From the NCBI GenBank assembly GCA_964358895.1, contig CAYHPR010000003.1, positions 14,473-78,472 of the forward strand: a stretch of DNA of 64,000 nt, given 5' to 3'. Position numbers and translations under genes: made by a program. The notes beneath the pieces are model-generated. The model was not told where the DNA came from. It saw only the letters and a program-made list of their open reading frames with translations, and made no database searches. Shown here piece after piece: positions 112 to 54,283 of this stretch. Position 1 is the first letter of the stretch, and each line of letters starts with the position of its first letter. This stretch comes from Candidatus Micrarchaeota archaeon (lineage in GTDB: Archaea; Micrarchaeota; Micrarchaeia; CABMEP01).

Positions 112-471
112 TTAGCTTATACTACTTTTTGCTTTTGTTTTGCTTTTTCGTATTGTTCCCGAGGTATATGTTGTTTGTAGATGAACTGGTACATTATCTA
201 GATTGGTGATAATAGGAAGAGCTTGTTTAGCAAGTTCAATAGCATCCCTTCTCACTCTGATAATGGCCAAATCTTTATCGAAAGTAATAACTCTAGCAAT
301 AATCTGTGAATAGCCAATTTCACCAACGAGTTTGAGTAAAGCAGCCGTTAGACCTCGTTCAAACTGTTCTTTAGTGAACGAATGTTCACAGTGGACTTTT
401 ATTGTAATATAACGCCATTTTTCTTTTAGAGTTGCTTTCATTAGCTCCCTTTTCTTAGATATCAAATCCAA
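112..471 (-). CDS. pop5: RNase P protein component 2 (Pop5/Rpp14 family)
   Basis: 119-aa ORF with the Pop5-type N-terminal motif (LKEKWRYITIKV resembles the RxRYL signature). Size and position beside Rpp30 and L15e match the archaeal superoperon context. The true start may be the internal Met at MKATLKEK. Confidence 0.6.
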   Translation of the reverse strand: MDLISKKRELMKATLKEKWRYITIKVHCEHSFTKEQFERGLTAALLKLVGEIGYSQIIARVITFDKDLAIIRVRRDAIELAKQALPIITNLDNVPVHLQTTYTSGTIRKSKTKAKSSIS

Positions 472-739
472 GCTGTTCTTTTATTAGTTTCTTTATTTCT
501 TGTGATTTTTCTGGATTCAGCGACACCTGTGTACCATAATGTGTTGGTTTTCTAAGAATAAATCTCTCTTTTATTAGTTTTTCAGCTAAGTCTTTAGCTA
601 GAGCTAGCCCATGTTTTCCTAATGATTGTGACTTGAATACTTTGAAAATATTTTCATACGCTGTATGACTTCCGCCCCATTTGCGTTTTCTAGCAAGTGA
701 AAATAAAAGTTGTGAACGGAGTCGGTCTTCATTATCCAT
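455..739 (-). CDS. hypothetical basic 94-aa protein
   Basis: Sits between Rpp30 and Pop5 on the same strand. No recognisable motif. The ORF is clean and lysine-rich. Confidence 0.35.
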   Translation of the reverse strand: MDNEDRLRSQLLFSLARKRKWGGSHTAYENIFKVFKSQSLGKHGLALAKDLAEKLIKERFILRKPTHYGTQVSLNPEKSQEIKKLIKEQLGFDI

Positions 740-789
740 TTGTTTACATCGATGTAAATATTTATATAGCTATAGGTTGTAAAGTAATA

Positions 790-1119
790 ATGGAAAAATC
801 ACCATTGTTGGAAGTTATAGGATATTCTGTAGAGAACAGAGTCATAGATTTTCTTATAGAAGGAAAGGGGACAGATTACACCAAAAAGGATATAGCAGAA
901 GGTTGCGATATAGCAAGACCTACGCTTTATAAAATACTTCCAAAATTAATAACAGAGGGAATAGTCAAACACACCAGAACTATAGGTAGAGCAATTTTGT
1001 ATAGTCTGGATGAAGAAAATGAAAAAGTGCAATTATTATTACAGTTAGAAACAATGCTACTTAAGAAGTCATTCGAAGAAGTAGAAAAATCAAAAGTTAA
1101 GGCACATGTTAGACATTAG
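790..1119 (+). CDS. winged-helix transcriptional regulator, opposite strand to the flanking genes
   Basis: About 110 aa from the ATG at 790 (MEKSPLLEV...). The pattern resembles small archaeal wHTH regulators (DIAEGCDIARPTLYKILPKLITEGIVKH...GRAILYSL). The upstream extension to 697 given by the ORF track overlaps the minus-strand gene and is probably spurious. Confidence 0.5.
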   Translation: MEKSPLLEVIGYSVENRVIDFLIEGKGTDYTKKDIAEGCDIARPTLYKILPKLITEGIVKHTRTIGRAILYSLDEENEKVQLLLQLETMLLKKSFEEVEKSKVKAHVRH

Positions 1120-1603
1120 GCCGAATTGACTTTAATGTCTCTTTATTGTCAGGATCTACAAGAGAACAAATTGCAACAATTTCTTCAGGAGTTCTTACGT
1201 TTATTTCGTTTTTAGCTAAAGTTGCAACACGTATTGCAACTTTGTAAGATTTGCAGAATTTTATGAACCTGCTTATCCGATTGATTGTGACTGCTCTCTG
1301 CAATCCTTCTTTTTCAAAGATATCTGAAAGTGCAATGAGCACTGGTTTTTCTTTATCATGTGCAGCAGCAAGAAATGCAACGTCCGTTTCATATGTTGTT
1401 AGGTAGAGAAGGTCAAAGAACCTAGCAGTTCTTTTCAGTTCCTCCGGGTTGTCTGATTTGGAAATTGCCGGTTTCTTCGTTATTCTGTCGGTCGGAGAAT
1501 AGATGTGAATGTCTTTACCGATTACCTGAACAGAAGAGAAGCCGTATTGATTAAATTTTTCAAAATTAAAGGAAACGATATCAGCAAATTTCGATTTAGG
1601 CAT
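1109..1603 (-). CDS. rnp3: RNase P protein component 3 (Rpp30/Rpp1-like TIM-barrel), short form
   Basis: The C-terminal 100 aa align by eye to Pyrococcus Rpp30: DVAFLAAAHDKEKPVLIALSDIF...RAVTINRISRFIKFCKSYKVAIRVATLAKNEINVRTPEEIVAICSLV against [23 protein letters not shown]...[47 protein letters not shown]. It lies between L15e and Pop5 as in the canonical superoperon. Confidence 0.55.
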   Translation of the reverse strand: MPKSKFADIVSFNFEKFNQYGFSSVQVIGKDIHIYSPTDRITKKPAISKSDNPEELKRTARFFDLLYLTTYETDVAFLAAAHDKEKPVLIALSDIFEKEGLQRAVTINRISRFIKFCKSYKVAIRVATLAKNEINVRTPEEIVAICSLVDPDNKETLKSIRPNV

Positions 1604-2117
1604 AAAGGCCCCTTGTCTTCCTTCCTAACCTTGTCATACCTCTAAATACACGTCCTTTTGGTAGAGTCAGACCCGTGAGTTTAGTGTCGACTAGAATAAT
1701 TTCAAAAAATTTGAGCATACCGTCAGAACCAACAAAGTATGAGTTAAGAACTTCAAGGTTTCTGAATGCTCTGGAAGCTCTCTCTTCAGCAATTAGTTGA
1801 AGTGATTTGTGTCTTGAGAAGAAACGACCCGTCTTTGACGGTTTCCTTCCTCTAAGCATCTTGATACGTTTGCGTTTTCCTCTCTTTACACGTACTCGGA
1901 CAACCACGTAACCTTTCTTTGCCTTGTAGCCCAGCGTGTGTGCTCTTGCGATATTTGTCGGTCTCTCAACACGTACCATCGGAGCTTCTTTTCTCCACTT
2001 AACGATTCTCTCCCGATAAATAGGCGAGCGTTCAGCATATTCGCTCTGGAACGTTTGTTGTATATGTTTATAAGAAGACATAATTATCTTTGATCCTTTA
2101 ACTGTGATTACTTTCAT
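1596..2117 (-). CDS. rpl15e: 50S ribosomal protein L15e
   Basis: Strong match to the archaeal L15e pattern (RPTNIARAHTLGYKAKKGYVVVRVRVKRGKRKR...EERASRAFRNLEVLNSYFVG...RVFRGMTRLGRKTRGL). Confidence 0.9.
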   Translation of the reverse strand: MKVITVKGSKIIMSSYKHIQQTFQSEYAERSPIYRERIVKWRKEAPMVRVERPTNIARAHTLGYKAKKGYVVVRVRVKRGKRKRIKMLRGRKPSKTGRFFSRHKSLQLIAEERASRAFRNLEVLNSYFVGSDGMLKFFEIILVDTKLTGLTLPKGRVFRGMTRLGRKTRGLYA

Positions 2118-2152
2118 CTAAAAGAATATAAGTCTAACGAATAAGCCTATAA

Positions 2153-3385
2153 CTAAAATTCTACGTGTTTACCAGTTCCAACTGTTTCATCAGTCGATTC
2201 TTTCTTTTCTTCGCTTATCCTTCTTTCAATTATTTCTCTCTTTTCAACTTTTTTTTCTTTTTCCTTTGGTTTTTTTTCTTCTTTCTGCCTTTTTTCACCG
2301 CTTATTTCATAAGATTGTTTTCGTTTTCCAATTTGTGTTTCGTAGAACTCATTGACTAGCCTGCTTGCTTCAGCAGCAATTTGGCTAGACCTATCTTTTT
2401 CTTCTTGCTCACTAAGCCATTTATTAAATTTAGTCACATATCTGTTCAAAATATCGTTTAACTTACTTTTTTCTCCGTAGTCTACAATGTCCTGAGGTTT
2501 CTTAGTCTTCTTTTTCTTGACCCATTCGTCCATAAACTCTTTTTTGAGTTGTTCGACTGTTTTTTCTTTTGGTCTTTGTGAGTCTATAAATGCAAGATAT
2601 TCCTCAATTGTTTTGTTTCCGCTCACTTTTCCTATAACTGCTTGAAATAAATTTTTTGCGTATCCCTCTGCGTCATTTCGCCATTTATCTTCGTCAGTTT
2701 GTGGCTCTATCTTTATCTCCTTTACATTTATTGTACGTACTTCATCCAATTTCTGATCAGTCAAGAATGCAAGGCAACTCGCTTGGCGGTTCATTTCAGT
2801 TATTGCATTTTCATATTCTGTCAATTCTTTAGGTTTCGGATAAGTGTTTTGATCACATTCTCTAAGTTTCCATCCGTTCGGCCCCCAATCCTCTTTATCC
2901 CATCTAGCTTCTTGTTTCCATTTCGAGTTAGCTAATGTAGTTCCTTTAGTATACTCTTCAATAACTGGTTTCATTCCAAGTTTTTCTATTATCCTACTTA
3001 TCGCCCCATATTCTGATTCTGTGAGAATAAGCATCAATTTTGCATCTTTATTTTCATCGATAAGAAGCTTGTTTAGTTCTCGGTATTGATTGACATCTAT
3101 CGATCTATCCTTTTGTTGATAGTCTATTTGTTTTAAACATACTTTTGTTTTATCAATCAGTGTCATTGTTTCTTTGTAATCGTGATTAAGTTCTTTGTTT
3201 TTTTTCTGAGCTTTTTTTTCAACTTCGTAATATACTGCCATTACTTTTTCTTTCGTTTCTGCAGGTAGGCTTTCTGTCATTTTGTTAACGATTGCGTTCC
3301 GTAGTTCCTGGCGTTTTCTGAAGGCTTCTTTTTCTGTATCTATTTTCGGTGTTAGTAGTCTCGACACTCCCATTTTATCGCTCAT
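2153..3385 (-). CDS. hypothetical highly charged K/E-rich protein (410 aa)
   Basis: Long clean ORF lying just upstream of L15e on the same strand. Low-complexity KEKEKK tail. No recognisable catalytic motif. Confidence 0.5.
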   Translation of the reverse strand: MSDKMGVSRLLTPKIDTEKEAFRKRQELRNAIVNKMTESLPAETKEKVMAVYYEVEKKAQKKNKELNHDYKETMTLIDKTKVCLKQIDYQQKDRSIDVNQYRELNKLLIDENKDAKLMLILTESEYGAISRIIEKLGMKPVIEEYTKGTTLANSKWKQEARWDKEDWGPNGWKLRECDQNTYPKPKELTEYENAITEMNRQASCLAFLTDQKLDEVRTINVKEIKIEPQTDEDKWRNDAEGYAKNLFQAVIGKVSGNKTIEEYLAFIDSQRPKEKTVEQLKKEFMDEWVKKKKTKKPQDIVDYGEKSKLNDILNRYVTKFNKWLSEQEEKDRSSQIAAEASRLVNEFYETQIGKRKQSYEISGEKRQKEEKKPKEKEKKVEKREIIERRISEEKKESTDETVGTGKHVEF

Positions 3386-3524
3386 ACATCAATATCCAGT
3401 TTTCATTTATAAATTAATGTGTTTTACAACTTATTCGGGAAAATTTCAATCCCAAAGGTATTTATATGAGAAACGCATAACGTATTTAGTTAAGGACGAG
3501 GCGTGTGGGCGCCAGAGGGATTAT

Positions 3525-4994
3525 ATGGTTTCGATATTTGGAAGAAAGAAAAATACTAATCAAACAGATGATTCGGATAAGGATCAAGTCCGTTCAATCG
3601 TTACGCGACTGAGTGAGCGAATAAATAGTTCTAAGACAGATCTTGCAGCAATACAGCCCCTTATCTCAAATAAAGTGGCTGAAAAAGAAGATCTTCTAAG
3701 ACAACAGGCAGAAGCTAGACTTAAGCAAGAAGGCATTGAATACGATATAGTTTATACTGTAAGAACGGTTAATGCAGAAGTAGATCAAAATAAAAAAGAT
3801 CAAACATTAGTGGAAGAGTTGGGAGCACGTAAAGCGCTTCTAGAAGTAAAATGCAAGGCTCTGCAAACTAATCTTGATGAAGAAGCAGCATATTTCGCTG
3901 ATTTGCAAAAAAAGCACGAAGCAAACGTGAAAGAACTTTCTGGTAAACTTAAAAAAGCAGAAGCAGCTCTTTCTGACATTAATTCAAAGGAAACAAAAGA
4001 GCTTGTCGATGCAATTGAGAGACGTTCAAAAGAAGTGAATGAGGCACGTGATCAATTGAAGTTGCTTAAAGTACTTGATGATAAATCTGAAAAGAAAGAA
4101 CAGGCACCTCTCTTTTCAGATTCAACAAAGAGAAAAATACGTAAATCTATTGTAGGCGTAGCCGTTGTAGCTGCTGTATTTGGTCTCTATAAATTAGTCG
4201 AATGGGGTACTAATAAGAAGCTAGAAAGCATAAGAAACGCTGCGAGAGAGGAGTTATTAATTGAAAATGCTAAACAACGGAAAGAAGAACGAAGAAAACT
4301 TGCTGAGCAGACGGCGAAAGAGGAACAAGAAAAGCAGGCAAGCTTAAGTGAAAAAGAGCGAAATATGTTGAAGTATAATGCTAGAATGCCATTACTTATA
4401 GAGGAGCTTAATAAGATTGCATCAGATAAGAAAAATTCAAGGAACAAATTAGCTAAAAGAATAATACAATTAATCAATGAAACAAGCCAAGATGAGTATA
4501 GAACCTTGGTTTTGTTCATAGGTCACGCAGAAAGAGACCTATACAAGCAGGGCTGGAATGGAGATTATAATCAAGACAATTCTCTTAACGATCTAAAAAA
4601 GTATATTCTTAAAGAAAGAGAAGTCGCACAGGAACGTGCTAAGCCAAAAAAGATAACCGAGACAAAAGAGGCGCCTAAACAAGAGTACACGGATGCCCAA
4701 ATACAAAATTCTAAAGAGGTTATGGCTCGTTTATTGGTCGATGTCGTAGAATTAAAAGGGCAAGTGCCAGTCATTAGAACTGCTGACAATGCCAATGAAG
4801 TACTGAAGATTTTGACCAATATCTATCAGGGATCCCTACAGTCAGATGGTGTCGAGTTCATTCCAAACGTAGAAGTTAGAAAAGACGAGAACTCAGAAAC
4901 AACTAATATCAAAAATTATCTTGGTAAGCGCAAGGTTGTTCGTATCAGAGTTGTGGGCGACAGCAAGCTTGAAGCACAGATAGTTAAAAGATAG
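3525..4994 (+). CDS. coiled-coil protein with one central TM helix and a conserved C-terminal module (paralog A)
   Basis: The ATG at 3525 avoids overlap with the upstream minus-strand gene. Heptad-rich, charged sequence. Central hydrophobic helix SIVGVAVVAAVFGLYKLV. The C-terminal 90 aa are about 50% identical to the C-terminus of the next gene (KEVM..KG..DNA..VL..LT..YQGS..GV.F.P....VR.RVVGDSKLEA). Confidence 0.6.
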   Translation: MVSIFGRKKNTNQTDDSDKDQVRSIVTRLSERINSSKTDLAAIQPLISNKVAEKEDLLRQQAEARLKQEGIEYDIVYTVRTVNAEVDQNKKDQTLVEELGARKALLEVKCKALQTNLDEEAAYFADLQKKHEANVKELSGKLKKAEAALSDINSKETKELVDAIERRSKEVNEARDQLKLLKVLDDKSEKKEQAPLFSDSTKRKIRKSIVGVAVVAAVFGLYKLVEWGTNKKLESIRNAAREELLIENAKQRKEERRKLAEQTAKEEQEKQASLSEKERNMLKYNARMPLLIEELNKIASDKKNSRNKLAKRIIQLINETSQDEYRTLVLFIGHAERDLYKQGWNGDYNQDNSLNDLKKYILKEREVAQERAKPKKITETKEAPKQEYTDAQIQNSKEVMARLLVDVVELKGQVPVIRTADNANEVLKILTNIYQGSLQSDGVEFIPNVEVRKDENSETTNIKNYLGKRKVVRIRVVGDSKLEAQIVKR

Positions 4995-5079
4995 TAGTTA
5001 AATCAATTTTACTATCTTTTATTTTCATGCCTTCCCGTAAACATTTAAAAGGGAGGAGTGATCTAATACTCGTGAGGTC

Positions 5080-6756
5080 ATGGGTGATCGTACGCCAGTG
5101 CAAGCACAAAAAAAAGTTGAACCAAAAGTTAGCGATGTGCATAAAGTTGATGCGTCACTAGACCTTCTGTCGCTTTGGGTTGAACAAGGAAGAGGACAAA
5201 AAGGAAAGTTGGAACCTAATCGAGTTGTCAGTGCGTTGCTAATCTCAGATGATTTAAAGAAAGGTAATCAGTCCGACAGTGGCTTTAGAAGCGAAAAAGA
5301 TGCAGAAAAAATATTCTCTACCCTAAAAAATGTCGTCGGGATAACAGAAAAAGGAACAGTGTTCGAATTTAAAACCCGAGACGATATTATGTATCGTACA
5401 CGTTTATTTTTAAATGGTGAAAAAAGTTTTGTTCAGATTACACCTCTGCTTTCTCCACCGTTGGATCTTGCAGATCTCGAAGTTCGTATGAACGGCAAGG
5501 GATCTACCTATGAAGATGCAGCATTCGCAGTCCGCTTTTTGGCCGAAGGTAAAGGAGCAAGTACAATTCTTGTTTTTGACAGCCGAGAAACAGCCGAGAA
5601 ATTTGCTGAACGTTTTTCTACTATTGCAGGCGTTACTAATTTCGAACAGAATAAAATAATCAAGGTCACTCCTCAAATGGGACGGCCGGTAAGTGTTAGG
5701 CAGGGTGGTAATAAAGTTATGTTTGCAGGAGATATCCGACTTATTTACAAAGAAATTTGGAACGAACTAAAAACGCAGTTTGGCCGTGATGAAAGCGATT
5801 TCAAGAGTAAACCATTCGATATTCAGTTAACTGTCAGAAATAAGAACGCATTGGATGTCGCATTAGATGCAATTATTTTGGCCGGTTTCATGTCTACCAA
5901 CCAGAAAGTAGAATACTTGAGAGACGTTAATGACAAACTTACTAATATTTCAGCTGTAATAAGGACGGATCCGAAGGAGTATAAGAACCTTCTTAATAAA
6001 ATGCTAAATCAGCAAAAAATTTGGATTAATACATTTGATAAGGCAGACAGGTCAACCAAAGAAAGAATTATTTTTGAACTTGAAGATGAGTGGCGTAAAG
6101 CAGCTCAAGAACTAATAATCGAAGGGCCAGCCCATTATCTATACAAAGATTTACGAACACTGCGAGGGAAGGACCTTAGGGAGCTAAGGAATACTTTCGC
6201 TCTTAAATTAGGGATGAAAAAATTAGAATCTCCTCCGCAACCCGAACCTTCAGTTAAGAAATCGACAGCCAAAACTGATGAACGGGAAGTCGAAAAATTC
6301 GTAGACATCAAAGGTAAAAATGAGGAGAAAATTTTGGAGCTGCAAAAGTCTGGAAAGGATGTTCCAGTCCTAGAAGTTTCAGAAAAAGAAGCAGATAAAA
6401 TATTACAAGGGCTTATGACATTTAGAAAAACAGAAGAAAAGAAGGGCGTAAAAGAAAAAGTAGAAGAAAAGGCAGAAAAACTAAAGTATTCCTCTGAGCA
6501 GGTTGAGTCAGCTAAAGAAGTCATGAGTCAATTAAAGAAAGATCTTGTGGATATGAAAGGTATTTCGGTTACAAGAAAAGTGGATAATGCATCTGTCGTT
6601 TTAAGTGTTTTGACGGATCTTTACCAAGGATCAGTTAAGCAAGAAGGAGTCACATTCACCCCCTCAGATCTGCAGAAATTTCTAAAGAAAAAAGTTATGC
6701 GTGTCAGAGTCGTTGGCGACAGTAAGCTTGAAGCAGAAGTCATGAAAGCAGATTAA
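5080..6756 (+). CDS. soluble coiled-coil protein with the same C-terminal module (paralog B)
   Basis: A GGGAGGAG ribosome-binding site sits 8-10 nt upstream of the ATG. 558 aa with no TM helix. The C-terminal 90 aa are conserved with paralog A (MRVRVVGDSKLEAEVMK). Confidence 0.65.
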   Translation: MGDRTPVQAQKKVEPKVSDVHKVDASLDLLSLWVEQGRGQKGKLEPNRVVSALLISDDLKKGNQSDSGFRSEKDAEKIFSTLKNVVGITEKGTVFEFKTRDDIMYRTRLFLNGEKSFVQITPLLSPPLDLADLEVRMNGKGSTYEDAAFAVRFLAEGKGASTILVFDSRETAEKFAERFSTIAGVTNFEQNKIIKVTPQMGRPVSVRQGGNKVMFAGDIRLIYKEIWNELKTQFGRDESDFKSKPFDIQLTVRNKNALDVALDAIILAGFMSTNQKVEYLRDVNDKLTNISAVIRTDPKEYKNLLNKMLNQQKIWINTFDKADRSTKERIIFELEDEWRKAAQELIIEGPAHYLYKDLRTLRGKDLRELRNTFALKLGMKKLESPPQPEPSVKKSTAKTDEREVEKFVDIKGKNEEKILELQKSGKDVPVLEVSEKEADKILQGLMTFRKTEEKKGVKEKVEEKAEKLKYSSEQVESAKEVMSQLKKDLVDMKGISVTRKVDNASVVLSVLTDLYQGSVKQEGVTFTPSDLQKFLKKKVMRVRVVGDSKLEAEVMKAD

Positions 6757-6855
6757 TGGCTCGTTCCGTTTATCCTATCTTCTAATTATCCGTTAGCCGT
6801 CGTCTATTGCATTGTATATTGAAAGACTTAAATAGGTAAAACGCACTAAATATTC

Positions 6856-31035: not shown

Positions 31036-31040
31036 TTTAT

Positions 31041-39916: not shown

Positions 39917-39920
39917 GTTT

Positions 39921-45627: not shown

Positions 45628-45630
45628 TTC

Positions 45631-45700
45631 TTTTTTTCATTTTTTTATTTTTATTTTTTGTTTTTTCTTTTCGTTTTTCAATTCGTTTTTCATTCTTTTG
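45631..45700 (+). terminator. T-tract transcription terminator region
   Basis: Oligo-T runs (TTTTTTT, TTTTTTTATTTTTATTTTTTGTTTTTT) begin immediately after the stop codon, the typical form of archaeal intrinsic termination. Confidence 0.5.
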
Positions 45701-45762
45701 TATAAGCTTAGTATAACTCTCTGAGCCATAAGGTTTAAAATATTATACTATAGCATATTGTA

Positions 45763-46721: not shown

Positions 46722-46727
46722 TGATTT

Positions 46728-47714: not shown

Positions 47715-47785
47715 AACCTAATTCTTCATCCGACAGCGTCGACAGAAAGCCATATATATCTTTTCTACTTAGTAAACTGATTCAA

Positions 47786-48892: not shown

Positions 48893-48985
48893 ATCACCTG
48901 CTGGAGTAAAGAGTTATAAAGCTTATTTGATAACATATTTACAGATAGAAACGAAAAAGACTAATTAATTATTCGAGGTTTTATT

Positions 48986-49699
48986 ATGTATCCAGTGCAA
49001 CCATCAGCTTATGATCGAGCCATTACTGTTTTCTCACCTGATGGTAGACTATTTCAGGTTGAATATGCAAAAGAAGCAGTCCGAAGAGGAGCAACGGCCA
49101 TCGGTTTAGCAAGCAATGATGGTATTGTTTTGATTGCACATAAAACAAAACCATCAAAACTTATTGTTCCTATTTCACTAAAGAAAATTTTCGAAGTTGA
49201 TGATCACGTAGCTATAGTGGCATCTGGTCTAGTTGCGGATGCAAGAAGACTTATTGATATGGCAAGAATAGAAGCACAACGATACCGCTACACCTACAAT
49301 GAGGCTGCAGATGTTGAATATTTGGCTAAGCACATAGCAGATCAAATGCAGCTTTACACCCAATACGGTGGTGCAAGACCATTCGGTGTCTCACTTATCT
49401 TTGGAGGAGTTGATTCAAATCCAAAGCTTTTCGAAGCTGAACCAAGCGGTGCATTAATTGGTGCCAAGGCATCTGTTATCGGTGCAGGAAAAACTGAGGT
49501 AACTGAATATCTTGAGAAAGAATACAGCGAATCAATGTCAGTCGAAGAACTTACTACTTTAGGATTCAAAGCAATGAAGCAAGTGCCAGAGATGAAGCTT
49601 AAGACAGACATATTTGATGTTGGAGTTATACCTACATCTTCGAAGAAATTCGAACTTCTTCCAATGGAAAAAGTAAATTCTTATGTTTCTAAAGCATGA
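48986..49699 (+). CDS. psmA: proteasome subunit alpha
   Basis: AYDRAITVFSPDGRLFQVEYA and VASGLVADAR...YTQYGGARPFGVSLIFGG show near-identical blocks to the Thermoplasma acidophilum PsmA sequence. Confidence 0.95.
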   Translation: MYPVQPSAYDRAITVFSPDGRLFQVEYAKEAVRRGATAIGLASNDGIVLIAHKTKPSKLIVPISLKKIFEVDDHVAIVASGLVADARRLIDMARIEAQRYRYTYNEAADVEYLAKHIADQMQLYTQYGGARPFGVSLIFGGVDSNPKLFEAEPSGALIGAKASVIGAGKTEVTEYLEKEYSESMSVEELTTLGFKAMKQVPEMKLKTDIFDVGVIPTSSKKFELLPMEKVNSYVSKA

Positions 49700-49742
49700 T
49701 TAATTAGCTTTTGTTGAAATAAATAATAAAAAGAAGGAGATA

Positions 49743-49762
49743 CTAAGAACCTTGGTTCTTAG
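49743..49762 (+). promoter_or_regulatory. perfect palindrome CTAAGAACC-TT-GGTTCTTAG immediately 5' of the SBDS ribosome-binding site
   Basis: Nine-bp perfect arms, followed by GGGTGAG and 5 nt later the ATG at 49773. The same core recurs at 53604. Confidence 0.5.
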
Positions 49763-49772
49763 GGTGAGTTGA

Positions 49773-50468
49773 ATGGGTTCTTTAGAAAAGTCTGTAGTAG
49801 CCCGTATAGAAATTAAAGGAGAAAAATTTGAGATTTTCGTAGATCCGAATCTTGCGTTAGATTTCAGACTCGGAAAGAAAACAGATTTCGCTAATGTTAT
49901 GGTTGTAGAAGAGATATTCTCTGATGTGAAGAAAGGTGAACATCAATCTGACGAGAAATTGAAAAAGTTTTTCGGAACTACAAATGTACTCGATGTTGCT
50001 AAGAAAATTGTAAAAGATGGTGACGTTCCAATAACAACCGAACAACGAAAACAGATGGTTGAAGAGAAAAGAAAAAAAATAATTGCAATTCTTTCACGTG
50101 AAACAATTGATCCGCGAACGGGTGCACCGCATCCGCCGCAGCGGATTGAGAGAGCGTTGGAAGAAGTAAGAATTCACGTTGATCCGTTCAAGCCTGCTGA
50201 AGCCCAAGTTAATGAAGCTTTAGCAGCACTTCGGCCGATTCTGCCGATGAAGTTTGAACATGCGCGTTTCGCAGTGAAAATTCCTTCAGATGTTGCTCAG
50301 AAAGTTTATGGAGCATTGAAGGAATATACTATTCAACAGGAAGAATGGGCAAGTGACGGTTCGCTGATGGTTGTGGTCGAAATGCCTGCGGGAATGCAAT
50401 CGGATTTTTTCGATCGCATCAACAGGTTAACTGCTGGTCGAGCTCAGACAAAAGAAATGAAAAAATAA
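49773..50468 (+). CDS. sdo1: SBDS/Sdo1 ribosome maturation protein
   Basis: Characteristic start [18 protein letters not shown]. Size 231 aa. Conserved position after psmA. Confidence 0.85.
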
Positions 50469-50509
50469 AAATAAGAAAAAAAATAATGATTTTACGGAGA
50501 TGAGTTTAT

Positions 50510-51199
50510 ATGACAAAATTAGTTATTCCAGGAGATATGTTAACTGAAAAAGTTATAAGAAGTCCTTACGTATTTATACGAGAAGGAAAAAGCTTTGCAG
50601 CTGTTATCGGAACATTTGATTCTGAAAATGAGAGATTTGTTCCGCTCAAAGGTGCATACTTGCCTCAACTTGGAGATGTAGTAATAGGTGCAGTTGAAGA
50701 AGAAAAAGTGATTGGTTACCAGATTGATTTATTCGCACCATACAAAGGTTTAATTTTTTCAAGAGGACTTAGATCAGCACTTTCTCAGGGAGATATCATA
50801 TCCGCAGAGATTTCAGAAGTTTCAGAAGTCAAAGATGTGATTCTTGACAGACCGCGCACATTGCGCGGAGGACAAATTGTATTTATTCCACCAACAAAGG
50901 TATCGCGTATTATAGGAAAGCAGATGTCAATGTTGCAGTTGTTGCAGAGAGGAACAGGTTGTGAAATCTTTGTAGGAAAGAATGGAGTAGTTTGGGTTAA
51001 AGGACAAAATGCTAGTAAAGCAATTGAAACGATTCTAAAGATTGAACGTGAATCACACACGCGAGGATTGACAGAAAGAATACAAAAATATTTAGGTGTT
51101 GAGTCAATGCCAACAATGAGTCAAGCTTCTAGTGTGTCAGAAACACGACAGGAGCGAGCACCACCAAGAGAAGGAAGAGAGTCTAGTTCCTTTGATTAA
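50510..51199 (+). CDS. rrp4: exosome RNA-binding cap subunit Rrp4 (S1 + KH)
   Basis: N-terminal domain, then an S1-like region, then a KH GxxG (GKNGVVWV). No Zn-ribbon, so Rrp4 rather than Csl4. Operon position fits. Confidence 0.75.
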   Translation: MTKLVIPGDMLTEKVIRSPYVFIREGKSFAAVIGTFDSENERFVPLKGAYLPQLGDVVIGAVEEEKVIGYQIDLFAPYKGLIFSRGLRSALSQGDIISAEISEVSEVKDVILDRPRTLRGGQIVFIPPTKVSRIIGKQMSMLQLLQRGTGCEIFVGKNGVVWVKGQNASKAIETILKIERESHTRGLTERIQKYLGVESMPTMSQASSVSETRQERAPPREGRESSSFD

Positions 51200-51247
51200 A
51201 TAGGAGATATATTTGTTAAGAAATTATGATTTTATAGAGGTGAAATT

Positions 51248-52027
51248 ATGGTAGGCGGAGAAAGTCCAATTCCATTGTTTGTAAATGGAAAGAGACTGGA
51301 CGGAAGAAGTCCAGATGATATGAGAGAAGTAAGTATTGTTGCAGGACCACTGAATAAAGCAGATGGTAGTGCTTATCTGGAACTTGGTAAGAATAAGGTA
51401 CTTGTTGGAGTGTTTGGACCACGTGAAGTGTTTCCAAAGCATCAGACAGATCCATACAAAGCAGTTGTCAGATGCATATACAGAATGGCACCATTTTCAA
51501 CTGAAGAACATGGAAGAACTAGACCAAACAGAAGATCGATAGAAATTTCAAAAGTTATCCGTGAAGTGTTTGAAAATGTGATCGTGCGCGAAATTTATCC
51601 AAAGACGGCAATCGAAATCTATATAGAAATTCTTGAATCGAACGGCAGTACGCGTGTAGCAGGTCTCACAGCTGCATCAGTAGCTCTTGCAAATGCAGGA
51701 ATTCCAATGAAAGACTTGCCTGTAGCTGTATCTGTTGGAAAGATCGACGGTAAGATTGCAGTTGATATGATGAAAGAAGAGGATAATTTTGGTCAGGCAG
51801 ATATGCCAATAGCAATTAAGCCTACAACTGGTGAAATCCTTTTGCTTCAAATGGATGGGAAGATGACGGGCGAAGAGTTTGCGAAAGCCATTGATATGGC
51901 ATTCAAGGCATCTGTAGGTGTTCATGAGAAACAGATTGCAGCACTGAAATCATACTACGAAAAAATCGAATCAGAGATTTCAGAGAACGGAGCAAGCGGA
52001 CAGATCGGACCGATCGAAAAAGTATAG
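51248..52027 (+). CDS. rrp41: exosome RNase PH subunit Rrp41
   Basis: RLDGRSPDDMREV at the N-terminus and an RNase PH fold length of 259 aa. Follows rrp4. Confidence 0.85.
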   Translation: MVGGESPIPLFVNGKRLDGRSPDDMREVSIVAGPLNKADGSAYLELGKNKVLVGVFGPREVFPKHQTDPYKAVVRCIYRMAPFSTEEHGRTRPNRRSIEISKVIREVFENVIVREIYPKTAIEIYIEILESNGSTRVAGLTAASVALANAGIPMKDLPVAVSVGKIDGKIAVDMMKEEDNFGQADMPIAIKPTTGEILLLQMDGKMTGEEFAKAIDMAFKASVGVHEKQIAALKSYYEKIESEISENGASGQIGPIEKV

Positions 52028-52064
52028 ACTGTGTAACGGCTATGAATTAAAATTATAGAATAAG

Positions 52065-52841
52065 GTGATATGCATGATATCAGATGAATTGAGAAAAAGT
52101 ACGGTTGTTGAGTTTGCAAAAACCGACAAAAGACTTGATGGAAGAGGTTTGAAAGATTATAGAACTATCACAATTGAAAGAAATGTGATTGGTACTGCAG
52201 AAGGTTCTGCACGTGTCAAGATTGGGGATACAACTGTTTTAGCAGGTGTTAAAATTGATCCGATCGAGCCATACGAGGACAGACCAAACGAAGGAACATT
52301 GGCAGTTGACGCTGAATTCCTTGCACTAGCACATGAAACATTTGAACCTGGCCAACCAGGTGAAGATGCGATTGAACTTGCTAGAATAGTAGATAGAGGA
52401 ATCAGATCAGCCGAGGCAATCGATGTTAAGTCACTATTTATTGAAGCTGGTAAGGCTTGGGGCGTATACGTTGACCTTTACGTGCTTGACAACGATGGAA
52501 ACTTAATAGATGCAGCCGCCTTAGCAGCTGTAAACGCTCTGCAAGGAATGAAAGTACCAAAACTAGTTGATGGTAACGCTGTTAGAGTTAAGCCAACGCC
52601 AATGAATCTTAAGACAATACCAACTTATTGCACATATGTTAAAGTTGGTGATAAGATTCTCTCCGATCCAACTTACACTGAAGAGGCTGCTGCGGATGCA
52701 AGAATAACCTTTTCAGTAGGAGACAATATGCTATATGCGATTCAGAAGTCTGGCAGCGGTGCATTCACAAAGGCTGAAATCTTAGGTATGTTCGATCAAT
52801 CCTTGACAATCAGGAAACAATTATTAACCTATATCAAGTAA
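52065..52841 (+). CDS. rrp42: exosome subunit Rrp42
   Basis: RLDGRGLKDYRTITIE and RNase PH-like domain organisation. Follows rrp41. Confidence 0.85.
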   Translation: MICMISDELRKSTVVEFAKTDKRLDGRGLKDYRTITIERNVIGTAEGSARVKIGDTTVLAGVKIDPIEPYEDRPNEGTLAVDAEFLALAHETFEPGQPGEDAIELARIVDRGIRSAEAIDVKSLFIEAGKAWGVYVDLYVLDNDGNLIDAAALAAVNALQGMKVPKLVDGNAVRVKPTPMNLKTIPTYCTYVKVGDKILSDPTYTEEAAADARITFSVGDNMLYAIQKSGSGAFTKAEILGMFDQSLTIRKQLLTYIK

Positions 52842-52910
52842 TATATCTAGAACAAGCTATAGTGTTAATCTAGTACAAATAACTAAAATCTAGTACAAAC
52901 AAATGATATT

Positions 52911-53153
52911 ATGACATCCTACGCGGTTCGTGGTGGAAGATCTGTCAAGATAAGGCTTCAAGCAGTAGCCAAGCTTCTTAGGACAAAGCAGAAGTGTCCT
53001 AGATGCGAAAAGAAACTGCTGAAGCGAATAAATACAGGTGTTTGGAAATGCAAGTCTTGTGGTAGTACATTCGCAGGAGGCGCTTACGCCCCAACAACCT
53101 CTGCAGGAGAAGTAGGTGCTAGAATTATTTCAGATTTTAATAAGAATAAGTGA
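52911..53153 (+). CDS. rpl37ae: 50S ribosomal protein L37ae
   Basis: CPRC...CKSCG zinc ribbon, 80 aa. RTKQKCPRCEKK...TGVWKCKSCGSTFAGGAYAP is the canonical L37ae sequence. Confidence 0.9.
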   Translation: MTSYAVRGGRSVKIRLQAVAKLLRTKQKCPRCEKKLLKRINTGVWKCKSCGSTFAGGAYAPTTSAGEVGARIISDFNKNK

Positions 53154-53181
53154 AGATATAGTTTATGGAGATGATGATGTT

Positions 53182-53310
53182 ATGTATACATGTGCAAACT
53201 GTAGTAAGGAAATAGAGTCGATAGACAATTTCGTTAGATGCCCATATTGCGCATGGCGCATTCTTTACAAACCTTCATTACCTATCTCTAGGACAATCAA
53301 GACAGATTAG
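53182..53310 (+). CDS. rpoP: DNA-directed RNA polymerase subunit P (Rpo12/RpoP)
   Basis: MYTCANCSKE...VRCPYCAWRIL is a CxxC...CxxC zinc ribbon of about 43 aa. The ORF-track start at 53116 overlaps L37ae and is likely an artefact. Confidence 0.75.
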   Translation: MYTCANCSKEIESIDNFVRCPYCAWRILYKPSLPISRTIKTD

Positions 53311-53340
53311 ATTGTCACAGGAGTCTGAAGATAGTTTCGG

Positions 53341-53580
53341 ATGACAGAGATGAAAACAATTATAGAAATTCCTTTTGAAGATAGTAAGCTGGCAAAAAAT
53401 GCTTACAAAGTTCTGCAAGGGGAGCTCACATTCAAAAAAAGAGCAGCACCAAGTGTAAAAATCGTAGGAAAAAGTATTGTAGTAACGATAAATGCTGATG
53501 ACATATCTGCATTGCATGCAGCAACTGGATCGTTCATGCGTGCATTGAAAGTAATATTTTCTGTTCAATCAACGAAATAA
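53341..53580 (+). CDS. pcc1: KEOPS complex subunit Pcc1-like
   Basis: 79 aa, predicted alpha/beta. Sits in the conserved superoperon slot between rpoP and prefoldin beta where Pcc1 (COG2892) lies in most archaea. Confidence 0.5.
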   Translation: MTEMKTIIEIPFEDSKLAKNAYKVLQGELTFKKRAAPSVKIVGKSIVVTINADDISALHAATGSFMRALKVIFSVQSTK

Positions 53581-53603
53581 ATTACAGATGTAGGAAGGAG
53601 ATA

Positions 53604-53624
53604 GTAAGAACCAATGGTTCTTAC
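53604..53624 (+). promoter_or_regulatory. perfect palindrome GTAAGAACC-AAT-GGTTCTTAC immediately 5' of the prefoldin-beta ribosome-binding site
   Basis: Nine-bp perfect arms share the core AAGAACC...GGTTCTT with 49743-49762. Followed by GGTGAC and 4 nt later the ATG at 53634. Confidence 0.5.
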
Positions 53625-53633
53625 GGTGACGAA

Positions 53634-53958
53634 TATGGCTCAAGAAAGAGAAGAAATGGAAAATTATCAAGTGGCACAACAGCAACTTCAGTTTCTTATG
53701 TTACAAAAGCAACAGATGAAGATGCAGTCGGAAGAAATTGATCACGCTCTTAAAGAAATTGAGAAGGCGAAAGGAGATTCTTACAGAATTGTAGGTCCAA
53801 TCCTAATGCAATCGTCAAAAGATGAGATAGTTAAAGATCTGCAGGAAAAGAAATCATTGTTCGAGTCTAGGATTGAGATTCTTAACAAGCAAGAAGACAG
53901 GCTAAAGAAATCTTTAATGGATGTACGAAAAGCAATGGAAAAACCTGACAGAAATTAG
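53634..53958 (+). CDS. pfdB: prefoldin subunit beta
   Basis: Coiled-coil, beta-hairpin, coiled-coil organisation (QQLQFLMLQKQQMKMQ...RIVGPILMQSSKDEIVKDLQEK...EILNKQE), about 108 aa. Start moved from the track value 53614, which lies inside the palindrome, to the RBS-preceded ATG at 53634. Confidence 0.8.
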
Positions 53959-53983
53959 TCCAATTCACTAGTTAATTCCATTC

Positions 53984-54283
53984 TTACTTAAACCTGTATT
54001 CGTACGTCTTTAGATCTATTTTTTCATTTTTTATTTTTATTCCGTCCCTTTTAAGAAGTTCTACCTTCTTTTTCAGACCTTCAGAATATCCTCCAAGTCT
54101 TCCATCAGAGTTTATCACTCTGTAACATGGAACTCTCTTAGGATGCTTATTCTTATTCAGTGCATTTCCAACTGCCCTATACGCTTCTGATCCAATCGAT
54201 TTTGCAAGTTCCTTGTAAGTTGTAACTTTGCCTCTTGAAACCTTCATTAGATTTTGGTAGATCCTATCAGAGAAACTTTGCAT
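53984..54283 (-). CDS. MGMT/Ogt C-terminal-domain-only protein (alkyltransferase-like), active-site variant PCYR
   Basis: 99 aa. Aligns with the Ogt C-terminal domain (YRAVGNALNKN...VPCYRVINSDGRLGGY). The canonical motif is PCHRV, and here His is replaced by Tyr. No N-terminal domain. Confidence 0.6.
   Translation of the reverse strand: MQSFSDRIYQNLMKVSRGKVTTYKELAKSIGSEAYRAVGNALNKNKHPKRVPCYRVINSDGRLGGYSEGLKKKVELLKRDGIKIKNEKIDLKTYEYRFK

What the first reader, a model, noticed from the sequence alone, without database searches (positions are those of the whole stretch)
112..54000. Exosome/RNase P/proteasome superoperon is split into two divergent halves separated by about 47 kb of accessory DNA
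In most archaea L15e, Rpp30, Pop5, PsmA, Rrp4, Rrp41, Rrp42, L37ae, RpoP and prefoldin beta form one co-directional superoperon. Here L15e, an Rpp30-like gene, an extra 94-aa gene and Pop5 are on the minus strand at 0.1-2.1 kb. PsmA through prefoldin beta are on the plus strand at 49.0-54.0 kb. An inversion plus the insertion or expansion of a surface-glycan island appears to have broken the ancestral unit. An opposite-strand wHTH regulator (790-1119) is also wedged between the Rpp30-like gene and Pop5, and a 410-aa K/E-rich protein now heads the L15e operon. So this genome has an unusual breakpoint and a marker of where the accessory region was acquired.
Basis: partly seen in the sequence, partly recalled or inferred. 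Interest (0 to 1): 0.5.

Follow-up and report, generated by a model that had tools for sequence, protein, structure and literature searches.

The report
Split archaeal exosome–RNase P gene cluster
In this groundwater Micrarchaeota (DPANN) genome, the conserved ribosomal/RNase P/proteasome/exosome gene string really is split into two divergent halves 47 kb apart, but the split built up in several ordinary steps shared with relatives, and such breaks are common in this phylum.

Summary
L15e, a short Rpp30, a 94-aa gene and Pop5 lie on the minus strand at 0.1-2.1 kb. PsmA, SBDS, Rrp4, Rrp41, Rrp42, L37ae, RpoP, Pcc1 and prefoldin beta lie on the plus strand at 49.0-54.0 kb. Between them are surface-protein genes, toxin-antitoxin pairs and a low-GC glycosylation island.

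- The organism is a Micrarchaeota MAG from Hainich groundwater, not a Thermoplasmata.
- The break was not one event. Distant Micrarchaeota have a contiguous Pop5-PsmA. The Micrarchaeum-like clade already carries a co-directional cassette of about 8 kb at that junction.
- The inversion flips little more than the roughly 2-kb L15e-Rpp30-Pop5 block. At least two other metagenomic relatives share it.
- Only the low-GC island of about 26 kb is missing from the sister lineage.
- L15e and PsmA each keep a conserved TATA-like box.
- Independent per-sample assemblies reproduce the junctions that I tested.
- Of 60 Micrarchaeota loci, 49 lack a contiguous Pop5-PsmA.

This is ordinary genome plasticity and of low novelty.

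The parts
1..59 (-). First 19 codons (MKHEGLRKKLITISVIPIL...) of a large secreted or surface protein ('giantA') lying directly downstream of Pop5. It forms the left flank of the inverted block.
   Evidence: Translation. The independent contig L109 extends 1.4 kb further left. Its product matches the L082 giantA at 47% and 82% identity in two segments. The L083 giantA is homologous to the L084 gene that lies divergently upstream of L15e, E 2e-37.
112..441 (-). Pop5 (RNase P subunit Rpp14/Pop5), 109 aa.
   Evidence: Pfam PF01900, E 1e-16. 67-72% identical to L082 and L083. Called as a 109-aa gene in L109.
455..739 (-). orf94, a small winged-helix protein ending 13 nt upstream of Pop5, with a GGGAG ribosome-binding site before the Pop5 ATG. 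It is one half of an inserted two-gene module.
   Evidence: No Pfam, NCBIfam or PDB sequence match. The family has 94 members and is 60-76% identical in Aenigmarchaeota and Micrarchaeota. AF2 model with pLDDT 90.6 and an HHH-beta-beta-H fold. Best fold matches are SSV1 F-93, PadR-like proteins and AspA.
740..789 (.). Divergent spacer between orf94 and the wHTH gene, with an AT-rich palindromic TATA-like sequence at 745-776.
   Evidence: Sequence; inverted repeat I12. A promoter or operator role is inferred.
790..1119 (+). A 109-aa winged-HTH regulator, the other half of the inserted module. It is convergent with Rpp30 and overlaps its 3' end by 11 nt.
   Evidence: Weak HTH hits in Pfam and NCBIfam. 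73% identical to the 108-aa neighbour of the orf94 homologue in an Aenigmarchaeota genome, L114. The same divergent pair occurs in L028.
1109..1603 (-). A short (164 aa), divergent Rpp30 (RNase P component 3).
   Evidence: Pfam PF01876, 20.7 bits, below the gathering score. NCBIfam RNase P component 3, E 5e-7, below its cut-off. The only PDB hits of the family profile are Rpp30 chains. Its position between L15e and Pop5 is conserved in 21 loci.
1596..2081 (-). Ribosomal protein L15e, 161 aa. The start MSSYKHIQ matches relatives.
   Evidence: Pfam PF00827, E 4e-46. 83-84% identical to L081-L083.
2115..2141 (-). Conserved TATA-like element TTCGTTAGACTTATATTCTTTTAGATG upstream of L15e. It lies between the stop codon of the 410-aa gene and the L15e start.
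   Evidence: Near-identical in the window, L081, L082 and L083. The core GCTT(T)ATAT also occurs upstream of L15e in uninverted relatives. The function is inferred.
2153..3385 (-). K/E-rich 410-aa protein with no detectable homologues among the loci fetched.
   Evidence: No Pfam match. No similarity to the K/E proteins that occupy the same position in relatives.
3522..12755 (+). Four large genes with no Pfam match (490, 558, 1356 and 590 aa). The last is the orthologue of the protein of about 500-540 aa found two genes upstream of PsmA in relatives; the L002 protein of this family carries many Asn-X-Ser/Thr motifs.
   Evidence: No Pfam match. p490 and p558 are homologous to L083 genes. p590 is 25-31% identical, with E down to 8e-44, to L001-3, L006 and L084.
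12849..13536 (+). VapB-like (MazE/AbrB fold) and VapC (PIN) toxin-antitoxin pair, absent at this place in relatives.
   Evidence: Pfam PF04014 and PF01850. No hits in related loci.
13580..14308 (+). p242, a conserved protein without annotation. It lies directly upstream of PsmA in the co-directional relatives.
   Evidence: 55-66% identical to the gene directly upstream of PsmA in L001-L006, and 63% identical to the L084 orthologue. 47 homologues in the protein database.
14339..40000 (.). Low-GC (26-32%) glycosylation island. It holds four PMT_2-type transferases, GT4 and GT2 glycosyltransferases, an ABC-2 permease plus ATPase, and GH10 and GH15-like hydrolases. It includes an exact 1.12-kb tandem duplicate of a GT4 gene.
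   Evidence: Pfam. GC profile. Absent between p242 and p328 in the sister lineage L097/L098 + L100/L101. The left junction is reproduced in the independent contig L108. No tRNA, integrase or flanking repeats.
40053..48892 (+). Segment of native-like GC. It holds a MNT-type nucleotidyltransferase plus a 131-aa partner, a GT2, a 1258-aa protein ('giantC'), a MNT + HEPN pair, the flippase-like p328 and the 368-aa protein directly upstream of PsmA.
   Evidence: Pfam and NCBIfam. GT2 (68%), giantC and p328 (74%) flank p242 in the sister L097/L098. p328, with or without a p368 homologue, precedes PsmA in L100-L103.
48913..48933 (+). Conserved TATA-like element GTTATAAAGCTTATTTGATAA about 55-75 nt upstream of PsmA.
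   Evidence: Conserved in the window, L100 and L102, while the surrounding spacer differs. The function is inferred.
48986..53958 (+). PsmA-SBDS-Rrp4-Rrp41-Rrp42-L37ae-RpoP-Pcc1-prefoldin beta string, the proteasome/exosome half.
   Evidence: Pfam. Same order in 35-40 related loci. Window 47829-51748 is reproduced in independent contigs L104-L107.

Best explanation
The window comes from a Micrarchaeota (DPANN) MAG from Hainich H52 groundwater. The L15e-Rpp30-Pop5 / PsmA-SBDS-exosome-L37ae-RpoP-Pcc1-PfdB neighbourhood is broken at the Pop5|PsmA junction. The break accumulated in steps.
1. The ancestral state, kept in distant Micrarchaeota, is a contiguous co-directional string.
2. In the ancestor of the Micrarchaeum-like clade, about 8 kb was inserted between Pop5 and PsmA. 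It comprised K/E-rich proteins, a giant protein, a roughly 500-aa protein with many Asn-X-Ser/Thr motifs and the protein p242, all co-directional with PsmA except the first K/E-rich gene, which is convergent with Pop5.
3. In the subclade holding this genome, L082 and L083, a short segment carrying L15e-Rpp30-Pop5 and the L15e promoter-like box was inverted in place. It lies between the left-flank gene giantA and the cassette. This made the two halves divergent.
4. The gap then kept growing in this lineage. It gained a low-GC glycosylation island of about 26 kb between p242 and the flippase-like gene, a VapBC pair and two MNT/HEPN-type pairs, and the GT2 and giantC genes were rearranged.
5. Separately, a two-gene module of small winged-helix proteins (wHTH + orf94) landed between Rpp30 and Pop5. 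In L083 a VapBC pair sits at the same spot.

The split is probably neutral for expression. L15e and PsmA each keep a conserved TATA-like box, and a similar box sits in the Pop5-PsmA spacer of unsplit genomes, so the two halves were probably separate transcription units already. Pop5 is now probably transcribed with orf94.

Steps 1-5 are shown by comparative synteny. The transcription statements are inferred.
For: Gene identities.

Taxon and source:
- All 80 best PsmA loci are Micrarchaeota.
- Proteins 100% identical to window proteins are recorded on a 90,269-bp contig and on Hain_H52 contigs.

Step 1. 11 loci have L15e-Rpp30-Pop5 directly upstream of PsmA.

Step 2.
- L001-3, L006 and L084 have Pop5, then about 8.3 kb, then PsmA.
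- The p590 and p242 orthologues lie just upstream of PsmA.

Step 3.
- L083 has p558 and p490 homologues divergent from L15e, and giantA downstream of Pop5.
- That giantA is homologous, E 2e-37, to the gene divergently upstream of L15e in L084.
- Window positions 59-1 and contig L109 show the same giantA downstream of Pop5.
- On an L15e neighbour-joining tree, the inverted genomes form one subclade, sister to L084.

Step 4.
- The sister lineage has giantC-87aa-GT2-p242-83aa-p328 (L097/L098) and p328-406aa-PsmA (L100/L101), with no island.
- GC drops at 14.3-40 kb.

Step 5.
- L081 and L082 have Rpp30 and Pop5 adjacent.
- L083 has VapBC there.
- The wHTH/orf94 pair occurs in unrelated contexts in L028 and L114 at 38-73% identity.

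Assembly. Per-sample contigs are 99.8-100% identical over window 1-1816, 1911-5188 and 47829-51748, and another carries the identical p242 gene followed by the PMT gene, i.e. the p242|PMT junction. Coverage is similar at 3-4x.

Promoter-like boxes.
Against: - The genes between L15e and p590 (KE410, p490, p558, p1356) show no detectable homology to the K/E, KE2 and giantB genes of the uninverted relatives. The right breakpoint of the inversion therefore cannot be placed gene by gene. Replacement of that segment cannot be separated from simple inversion.
- No inverted repeats flank the block.
- Linking L083, L097/L098 and L100/L101 to one sister genome rests on a shared sample and on the p328 gene being split across contig ends. 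There is no single contig.
- The polarity of the island (gain here or loss in the sister) rests on GC deviation and one sister lineage. No mobility genes, tRNA or border repeats were found.
- The L15e tree uses one 160-aa protein and has no support values.
- The independent contigs come from the same site and may share reads with the MAG.
- No transcription data exist.
Confidence: 0.78

Rival explanations
1. One reading: in this genome one inversion, together with insertion of a glycan island, broke a previously intact superoperon. The breakpoint would then mark where the accessory DNA was acquired.
For: The halves are divergent, and a low-GC glycosylation island lies between them.
Against: - Relatives without the island and without the inversion already have about 8.3 kb between Pop5 and PsmA.
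- Relatives with the inversion (L082, L083) show that it involves only the short L15e-Rpp30-Pop5 segment, with the flanks conserved.
- The island sits more than 12 kb from the inverted block, between p242 and the downstream GT2/giantC/p328 segment.
Confidence: 0.04
2. An assembly or binning artefact. The contig would be chimeric at the L15e block or at the borders of the low-GC region.
For: - The source is a low-coverage MAG; the per-sample contigs report 3-4x coverage.
- There is an exact 1.12-kb tandem repeat inside the island.
- GC shifts sharply at 14.3 kb.
Against: - Contigs from five separate H52 sample assemblies and from Logan assemblies reproduce four junctions at 99.8-100% identity. 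These are giantA|Pop5..Rpp30|L15e, L15e|KE410|p490, p242|PMT and p368|PsmA.
- The inverted arrangement also occurs in other species from other sites (L082, L083).
- A homologue (46-47% identity) of the small gene that flanks p242 in the sister lies inside the island at 36055-36312.
Confidence: 0.03
3. The L15e block was not inverted in place. It was excised and reinserted, or the whole segment from L15e to upstream of p590 was replaced by recombination with a divergent relative that happened to carry the opposite orientation.
For: - KE410, p490, p558 and p1356 have no detectable homologues in the uninverted relatives.
- KE410 is not even similar to the L083 protein in the same position.
Against: - Both outer flanks keep their orientation and adjacency: giantA on the left, p590/p242 on the right.
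- The L15e promoter-like core is retained.
- Fast divergence of low-complexity K/E-rich and surface proteins explains the missing similarity equally well.
Confidence: 0.12
4. The low-GC glycosylation region is ancestral to the subclade and was deleted in the sister lineage. Its low GC would reflect the usual composition of glycan-synthesis clusters rather than foreign origin.
For: - No integrase, tRNA or border repeats.
- Homologues of island-adjacent genes (GT2, 85-aa protein, giantC, p328) surround p242 in the sister.
Against: - L001-L006 also lack the island between p242 and PsmA.
- Among the fetched loci the island genes have no hits, or only distant hits of at most 39% identity to the common glycosyltransferase families.
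- The GC difference is about 10 points.
Confidence: 0.15

Closest known systems
Archaeal exosome/proteasome/RNase P 'superoperon' (Koonin, Wolf & Aravind 2001, recalled from my own knowledge; described as a partially conserved neighbourhood of overlapping operons in PMC2588523; SBDS membership in PMC2695463)
   Same: - All expected genes are present: L15e, Rpp30, Pop5, PsmA, SBDS, Rrp4, Rrp41, Rrp42, L37ae, RpoP, prefoldin beta, plus Pcc1.
- Order within each half is canonical.
   Different: - The string is cut at Pop5|PsmA. The halves are divergent and 47 kb apart.
- The L15e half is itself interrupted by an opposite-strand gene.
- Such disruption is expected for this neighbourhood and is the majority state in Micrarchaeota.
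Flexible genomic islands for surface glycosylation, such as O-antigen or S-layer glycan clusters lodged between conserved housekeeping genes (recalled from general knowledge)
   Same: - Low GC.
- Dense glycosyltransferase content with an ABC-2 exporter and a flippase-like gene.
- Absent from the sister lineage at the same locus.
- Toxin-antitoxin pairs lie nearby.
   Different: - No integrase, tRNA or direct repeats.
- The host is a DPANN archaeon with a small genome.
- The function of the glycan is unknown.
Small winged-helix proteins of archaeal viruses and plasmids (SSV1 F-93, STIV F93, pNOB8 AspA) and PadR-like regulators
   Same: The orf94 model has the same HHH-beta-beta-H winged-helix fold (TM 0.60-0.65). 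The gene is small and is paired with another wHTH gene.
   Different: - Sequence identity is only 8-18% and Foldseek E is at best 8e-3.
- No family model matches.
- DNA binding and any mobile-element origin are untested.

Membership tests
Archaeal exosome superoperon | Orthologues of L15e, Rpp30, Pop5, PsmA, SBDS, Rrp4, Rrp41, Rrp42, L37ae, RpoP and prefoldin beta are present | tested here: met
   Pfam hits for all of them. Rpp30 is only a weak match.
Archaeal exosome superoperon | The genes form one contiguous, co-directional string | tested here: not met
   The halves are on opposite strands and 46.9 kb apart. This state is shared in part with relatives.
Chromosomal inversion | An internal segment is flipped while both flanks keep their order and orientation relative to an outgroup | tested here: met
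   - Left flank: giantA is homologous between the inverted L083 and the uninverted L084, E 2e-37. It is also present in the window and L109.
- Right flank: p590 and p242 are on the same strand as PsmA in both states.
- The genes immediately to the right (KE410 to p1356) are not alignable.
Chromosomal inversion | Inverted repeats or IS elements at the breakpoints | tested here: not met
   No significant inverted repeat pairs window 60-111 with 2082-2152. The event predates about 17-30% protein divergence, so any repeats may have decayed.
Horizontally acquired genomic island | Composition differs from that of the host genome | tested here: met
   GC is 26-32% at 14.3-40 kb against 36-43% in the flanks.
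Horizontally acquired genomic island | Absent from the same locus in close relatives | tested here: met
   The sister lineage L097/L098 + L100/L101 and L001-L006 lack it. The sister's linkage across a contig break is inferred.
Horizontally acquired genomic island | Integrase or transposase, a tRNA target, and flanking direct repeats | tested here: not met
   No tRNA genes, no flanking repeats and no recombinase domains in Pfam scans.
RNase P protein component 3 (Rpp30) | Match to the family model above its curated threshold, with a full-length TIM-barrel | tested here: inconclusive
   - Pfam 20.7 bits against a cut-off of 35; NCBIfam 29.7 bits against 200.
- Only the C-terminal 70-80 residues align.
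- The profile hits only Rpp30 chains in the PDB, E 0.011-0.1.
- The protein is 164 aa, against 212-232 aa in solved homologues.
- Its position between L15e and Pop5 is conserved.
VapBC and HEPN-MNT toxin-antitoxin pairs | Adjacent small genes carrying the two characteristic domains | tested here: met
   - MazE-like + PIN at 12849-13536.
- NTP_transf_2 + HEPN at 45763-46721.
- At 40053-41023 only the nucleotidyltransferase half is recognised.
- Activity was not tested.

The most novel reading that the evidence does not exclude
The Rpp30|Pop5 spacer and the Pop5|PsmA gap are recurrent landing sites in Micrarchaeota. As a result, expression of the essential RNase P subunit Pop5 has been rewired. 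Pop5 is now driven from the promoter of an inserted, horizontally spread pair of winged-helix regulators in this genome, and from a vapBC promoter in L083. This would couple RNase P assembly to a mobile regulatory or addiction module. The growing gap would also act as a dedicated variable surface and glycan locus for host attachment in these symbionts.
Probability: 0.12. Interest if true: 0.4.

Novelty: new member of a known kind. Interest (0 to 1): 0.2.

Why it matters
The result matters mainly as a correction.
- The window is DPANN, not Thermoplasmata.
- The 'unusual breakpoint' is a common and old feature of the lineage, assembled from ordinary events: cassette insertion, a small inversion and island accretion.
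- It gives a dated series of states for one locus across Micrarchaeota.
- It suggests that the two halves of the classical superoperon are independent transcription units.
- It flags a low-GC glycosylation island that could bear on the cell surface of an episymbiont.

None of this changes what is known about these systems.

Tried and rejected
- Two exact-sequence look-ups of the window's L15e (173-aa and 161-aa versions) found nothing. The 90-kb source contig itself was never returned, so the region left of the window was reached only through L109, which adds 1.4 kb.
- HMMs of the K/E, KE2 and giantB families from uninverted relatives did not detect KE410, p490, p558 or p1356. Orthology of the right flank next to L15e therefore stays open.
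- Searches for inverted repeats at the ends of the block and for direct repeats or tRNA genes at the island borders were negative.
- orf94 has no match in Pfam, NCBIfam or PDB sequences. Only the predicted fold was informative.
- I tested whether the Pop5|PsmA gap generally hosts surface genes and rejected the idea. Inserts in other Micrarchaeota are heterogeneous, judged by eye and not scanned against Pfam: what look like tetratricopeptide (TPR)-type repeat proteins, a probable TnpB-like gene, and an unrelated 660-aa + 372-aa pair.
- The original superoperon paper (Koonin et al. 2001) is not in the held library, so it is cited from memory only.
- The sigma-70 promoter scanner was not used because it does not cover archaeal promoters.

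Full report
**1. What is in the window**

On the minus strand, in transcription order:
- A K/E-rich 410-aa ORF at 2153-3385, with no family match.
- L15e at 1596-2081.
- A short Rpp30-like gene at 1109-1603.
- A 94-aa ORF at 455-739.
- Pop5 at 112-441.

A weak winged-HTH gene sits on the plus strand at 790-1119. It overlaps the 3' end of Rpp30 by 11 nt.

On the plus strand from 48986 to 53958 lie PsmA, SBDS, Rrp4, Rrp41, Rrp42, L37ae, RpoP, Pcc1 and prefoldin beta.

The Rpp30 call is weak. It scores below the Pfam and NCBIfam cut-offs and only its C-terminal part aligns. Two points support it:
- A profile of the protein and its relatives hits nothing in the PDB except Rpp30 chains.
- Its position between L15e and Pop5 is conserved in 21 related loci.

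The 47 kb in between holds the following:
- Four large proteins with no Pfam match at 3.5-12.8 kb.
- A VapBC pair at 12849-13536.
- A conserved 242-aa protein of unknown function (p242) at 13580-14308.
- A glycosylation region with four PMT_2-type transferases, ten GT2 or GT4 genes, an ABC-2 permease/ATPase pair, and GH10 and GH15-like hydrolases.
- Two MNT-type nucleotidyltransferase pairs, one of them with a recognisable HEPN partner.
- A 1258-aa protein, a flippase-like protein (p328) and a 368-aa protein next to PsmA.

GC is 26-32% from about 14.3 to 40 kb and 36-43% elsewhere. There are no tRNA genes.

**2. Whose genome it is**

The 80 best PsmA loci among species-representative genomes are all Micrarchaeota/Micrarchaeia, apart from one contig filed under a Mycoplasmatota bin; the best is 78% identical.

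Proteins 100% identical to window proteins are on record for a 90,269-bp contig and for contigs named Hain_H52 from Hainich groundwater well H52.

**3. Is it an assembly artefact?**

Per-sample assemblies of five H52 filter samples, plus Logan assemblies of the runs, give contigs 99.8-100% identical to:
- window 1-1816 (L109-L113)
- window 1911-5188 (L096)
- window 47829-51748 (L104-L107)

A further contig (L108) carries the identical p242 gene followed by the PMT gene, i.e. the p242|PMT junction.

All report similar 3-4x coverage. Both ends of the L15e block, the left edge of the island and the p368|PsmA junction are therefore reproduced. These contigs come from the same site as the MAG, so they may not be fully independent of it. 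However, other species from other sites also show the inverted arrangement (section 4).

**4. Comparative synteny**

I mapped all window proteins onto 10-kb flanks of 80 PsmA loci and 15 L15e loci. I then repeated the search for Pop5, Rpp30 and L15e with iterated HMMs.

Of the 60 PsmA loci that were informative about what lies upstream (all but three with at least 3 kb of upstream sequence):
- 11 have L15e-Rpp30-Pop5 directly upstream of PsmA.
- 10 have it co-directional but separated by 0.9-8.3 kb.
- 39 have none of the three genes in the 3-10 kb available.

The unsplit string is thus the minority state in this phylum.

The closest relatives in genome collections are L001-3 and L006 (PsmA 72-78%) and the metagenome locus L084 (L15e 77%). 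They share one arrangement:
- L15e, Rpp30 and Pop5 forward.
- A K/E-rich gene on the reverse strand, then a second K/E-rich gene forward.
- A protein of 1052-1308 aa.
- A protein of about 500-540 aa; the L002 copy, read by eye, has many Asn-X-Ser/Thr motifs. This is the orthologue of window 10983-12755, with E down to 8e-44.
- The p242 orthologue at 55-66% identity (63% in L084).
- PsmA. L084 ends just after the p242 orthologue, so PsmA itself is not seen there.

The superoperon was therefore already split by about 8.3 kb, co-directionally, before this genome's lineage arose.

**5. The inversion**

Three closer metagenomic relatives, L081-L083, have L15e 83-84%, Rpp30 65-70% and Pop5 67-74% identical to the window.

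In L083, homologues of window p490 and p558 lie divergently upstream of L15e, as in the window. A 1279-aa gene follows Pop5 on the same strand. That gene is homologous (E 2e-37 over 930 residues) to the 1234-aa gene that lies divergently upstream of L15e in the uninverted L084.

The window's first 59 bases, read on the minus strand, encode MKHEGLRKKLITISVIPIL. This matches the N-terminus of the L083 and L082 proteins. Contig L109 continues 1.4 kb further and matches the L082 protein at 47% and 82% identity.

So the left flank (giantA) and the distant right flank (p590, p242, PsmA) keep their orientation, while L15e-Rpp30-Pop5 is flipped. The inversion is local, about 2 kb. L082 and L083 share it, and L081 probably does too. 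It has nothing to do with the island.

On a rough neighbour-joining tree of L15e, the inverted genomes form one subclade, sister to L084 and nested among the genomes with the 8-kb cassette. Contiguous genomes fall outside.

Caveats:
- The genes next to L15e on the right (KE410, p490, p558, p1356) show no detectable similarity to the K/E, KE2 and giantB genes of uninverted relatives.
- KE410 is not even similar to its positional counterpart in L083.
- The right breakpoint therefore cannot be placed exactly, and replacement of that segment cannot be excluded.
- No inverted repeats flank the block.

**6. The island**

A sister lineage was sampled in JGI 3300032053 and ENA ERZ27247916, the same JGI sample that gave L083. 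It has two relevant contigs:
- L097/L098: giantC (more than 3000 aa), an 87-aa gene, GT2 (68% to window 41024-41725), p242 (74%), an 83-aa gene and p328 (74%).
- L100/L101: the end of p328, a 406-aa homologue of the window's 368-aa protein, PsmA (88%) and the complete exosome string.

The two contigs end and begin inside the same p328 gene. In the sister, p242 is therefore about 3 kb from PsmA and there is no low-GC region. In L102/L103 (PsmA 83%), p328 directly precedes PsmA.

In the window, p242 and p328 are 32 kb apart. The low-GC 14.3-40 kb stretch is extra, and GT2 and giantC lie on the other side of p242.

A gain in this lineage is the simplest reading, for two reasons:
- The GC deviates by about 10 points.
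- Among the fetched loci the island genes have no hits, or only distant hits of at most 39% identity to the common glycosyltransferase families.

Against a gain, there are no integrase genes, tRNA genes or border repeats. Loss in the sister is a live alternative.

**7. The insert between Rpp30 and Pop5**

Rpp30 and Pop5 are adjacent in L081, L082 and all other relatives. L083 has a VapBC pair there, and the window has wHTH + orf94.

Findings on orf94 and its partner:
- orf94 belongs to a family of 93-94-aa proteins. It is 60-76% identical in Micrarchaeota and Aenigmarchaeota and 40-47% in Bathyarchaeia and Nitrososphaerales.
- In the Aenigmarchaeota genome L114, orf94 is again divergently paired with a 108-aa protein that is 73% identical to the window's wHTH. 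That pair sits in an unrelated context, between Ogg and NUDIX genes. L028 has the pair too.
- An AF2 model of orf94 (pLDDT 90.6) is a winged helix with a C-terminal helix. It is closest to SSV1 F-93, PadR-like proteins and AspA, at TM about 0.6.

The pair is much more conserved across phyla than Pop5 is within the family, which fits a horizontally spread module.

orf94 ends 13 nt before the Pop5 ATG, which is preceded by GGGAG. Pop5 is therefore probably co-transcribed with orf94 from the 50-nt AT-rich palindromic spacer at 740-789. This is inferred.

**8. Promoters (inference only)**

- A 21-nt element, GTTATAAAGCTTATTTGATAA (48913-48933), lies 55-75 nt upstream of PsmA. It is conserved in L100 and L102 although the surrounding spacer differs.
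- Unsplit genomes L010-12, L015 and L018 carry a conserved TATTTTAAACCTTAGATG in the Pop5-PsmA spacer.
- Upstream of L15e, TTCGTTAGRCTTATATTCTTTTAGATG is near-identical in the four genomes of the inverted subclade (window, L081, L082, L083). Its core GCTT(T)ATAT is also present in uninverted relatives.
- In the window this element starts 11 nt after the stop codon of the 410-aa gene. Its terminal ATG is the start of the longer 173-aa L15e ORF; the equivalent ATG is followed by an early stop in L082 and L083.

From this I infer three things. The true L15e start is at 2081. L15e carried its own promoter through the inversion. The 410-aa gene does not 'head' the operon. The PsmA half was probably a separate transcription unit even before the split, which would explain why this junction breaks so often.

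**9. Comparison with what is known**

The exosome superoperon is described in the literature as a partially conserved neighbourhood of overlapping operons, not a fixed unit (PMC2588523). SBDS is listed as a member (PMC2695463). The original 2001 paper is not in the held library.

Low-GC glycosylation islands and the accumulation of toxin-antitoxin pairs in variable regions are well-known kinds of feature; this rests on general knowledge. The inserts at the same junction in other Micrarchaeota are heterogeneous, judged by eye and not scanned against Pfam: probable TPR-type repeat proteins, a probable TnpB-like gene and others. The gap is therefore not a dedicated surface-gene locus across the phylum.

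**10. Verdict**

The split is old, stepwise and common in the phylum. The inversion is small and shared with relatives. Only the island appears lineage-specific.

Novelty: a new instance of known kinds of rearrangement. Interest: 0.2.

Noticed in passing
window 21639-22759 and 22843-23963: Two tandem copies of a GT4 glycosyltransferase gene are 100% identical over about 1121 nt, with unit spacing of 1204 nt. This is either a very recent duplication or an assembly artefact in a low-coverage MAG.
   Followed up: partly
window 455-1119; L114 3538-4282; L028 18160-18777: A divergent pair of small winged-helix proteins (93-94 aa and 108-109 aa) is conserved at about 70% identity between Micrarchaeota and Aenigmarchaeota, in unrelated genomic contexts. 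Neither protein has a family annotation. The orf94 family has invariant W21, G22, H25, T26 and a KPTxYGxQVSLNP wing.
   Followed up: partly
window 12849-13536, 40053-41023, 45763-46721; L083 5061-5704: Three toxin-antitoxin-type pairs lie in the gap: VapBC, MNT + HEPN, and an MNT with a 131-aa partner that has no recognised domain. An unrelated VapBC sits between Rpp30 and Pop5 in L083.
   Followed up: partly
window 19083-20402 and 32597-35266: The island encodes a GH10 glycoside hydrolase (E 8e-61) and an 889-aa GH15-like protein, which is unexpected cargo for a DPANN archaeon with a small genome.
   Followed up: no
window 13580-14308 and homologues P0001-P0047: p242 is an unannotated protein family of 242-264 aa. 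It lies directly upstream of PsmA in the Micrarchaeum-like relatives L001-L006, and more distant members occur in genomes labelled Gugararchaeum and Marsarchaeota.
   Followed up: partly
window 1109-1603; L002 851-1297; L084 10531-11058: Rpp30 is reduced to 147-175 aa throughout this clade, against 212-232 aa in solved archaeal Rpp30. Only the C-terminal part aligns to family models.
   Followed up: partly
window 41851-45627; L097 1-8704: A 1258-aa protein with no Pfam match has internal repeats about 330 nt apart at 44122 and 44452. Its homologue in the sister lineage exceeds 3000 aa. Together with the 1356-aa and giantA proteins, this makes a set of fast-evolving giant genes around the split.
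   Followed up: no
L041 8791-9954: In another Micrarchaeota genome the Pop5|PsmA gap holds a 387-aa gene whose N-terminus (MRSYKFRLYPSK...) looks like an IS200/IS605-type TnpB. I judged this by eye and did not scan it.
   Followed up: no
window 53116-53310: The listed 64-aa RpoP ORF starts with GTG inside L37ae. Relatives call a 42-aa product, so the real start is probably the internal ATG (MYTCANC...) near 53180.
   Followed up: no
L084 9880-10000: The divergent spacer between giantA and L15e in the uninverted relative contains a near-palindromic AAAGCTTTATAT / ATATAAAGCTTT element. It could serve both genes as a bidirectional promoter.
   Followed up: no
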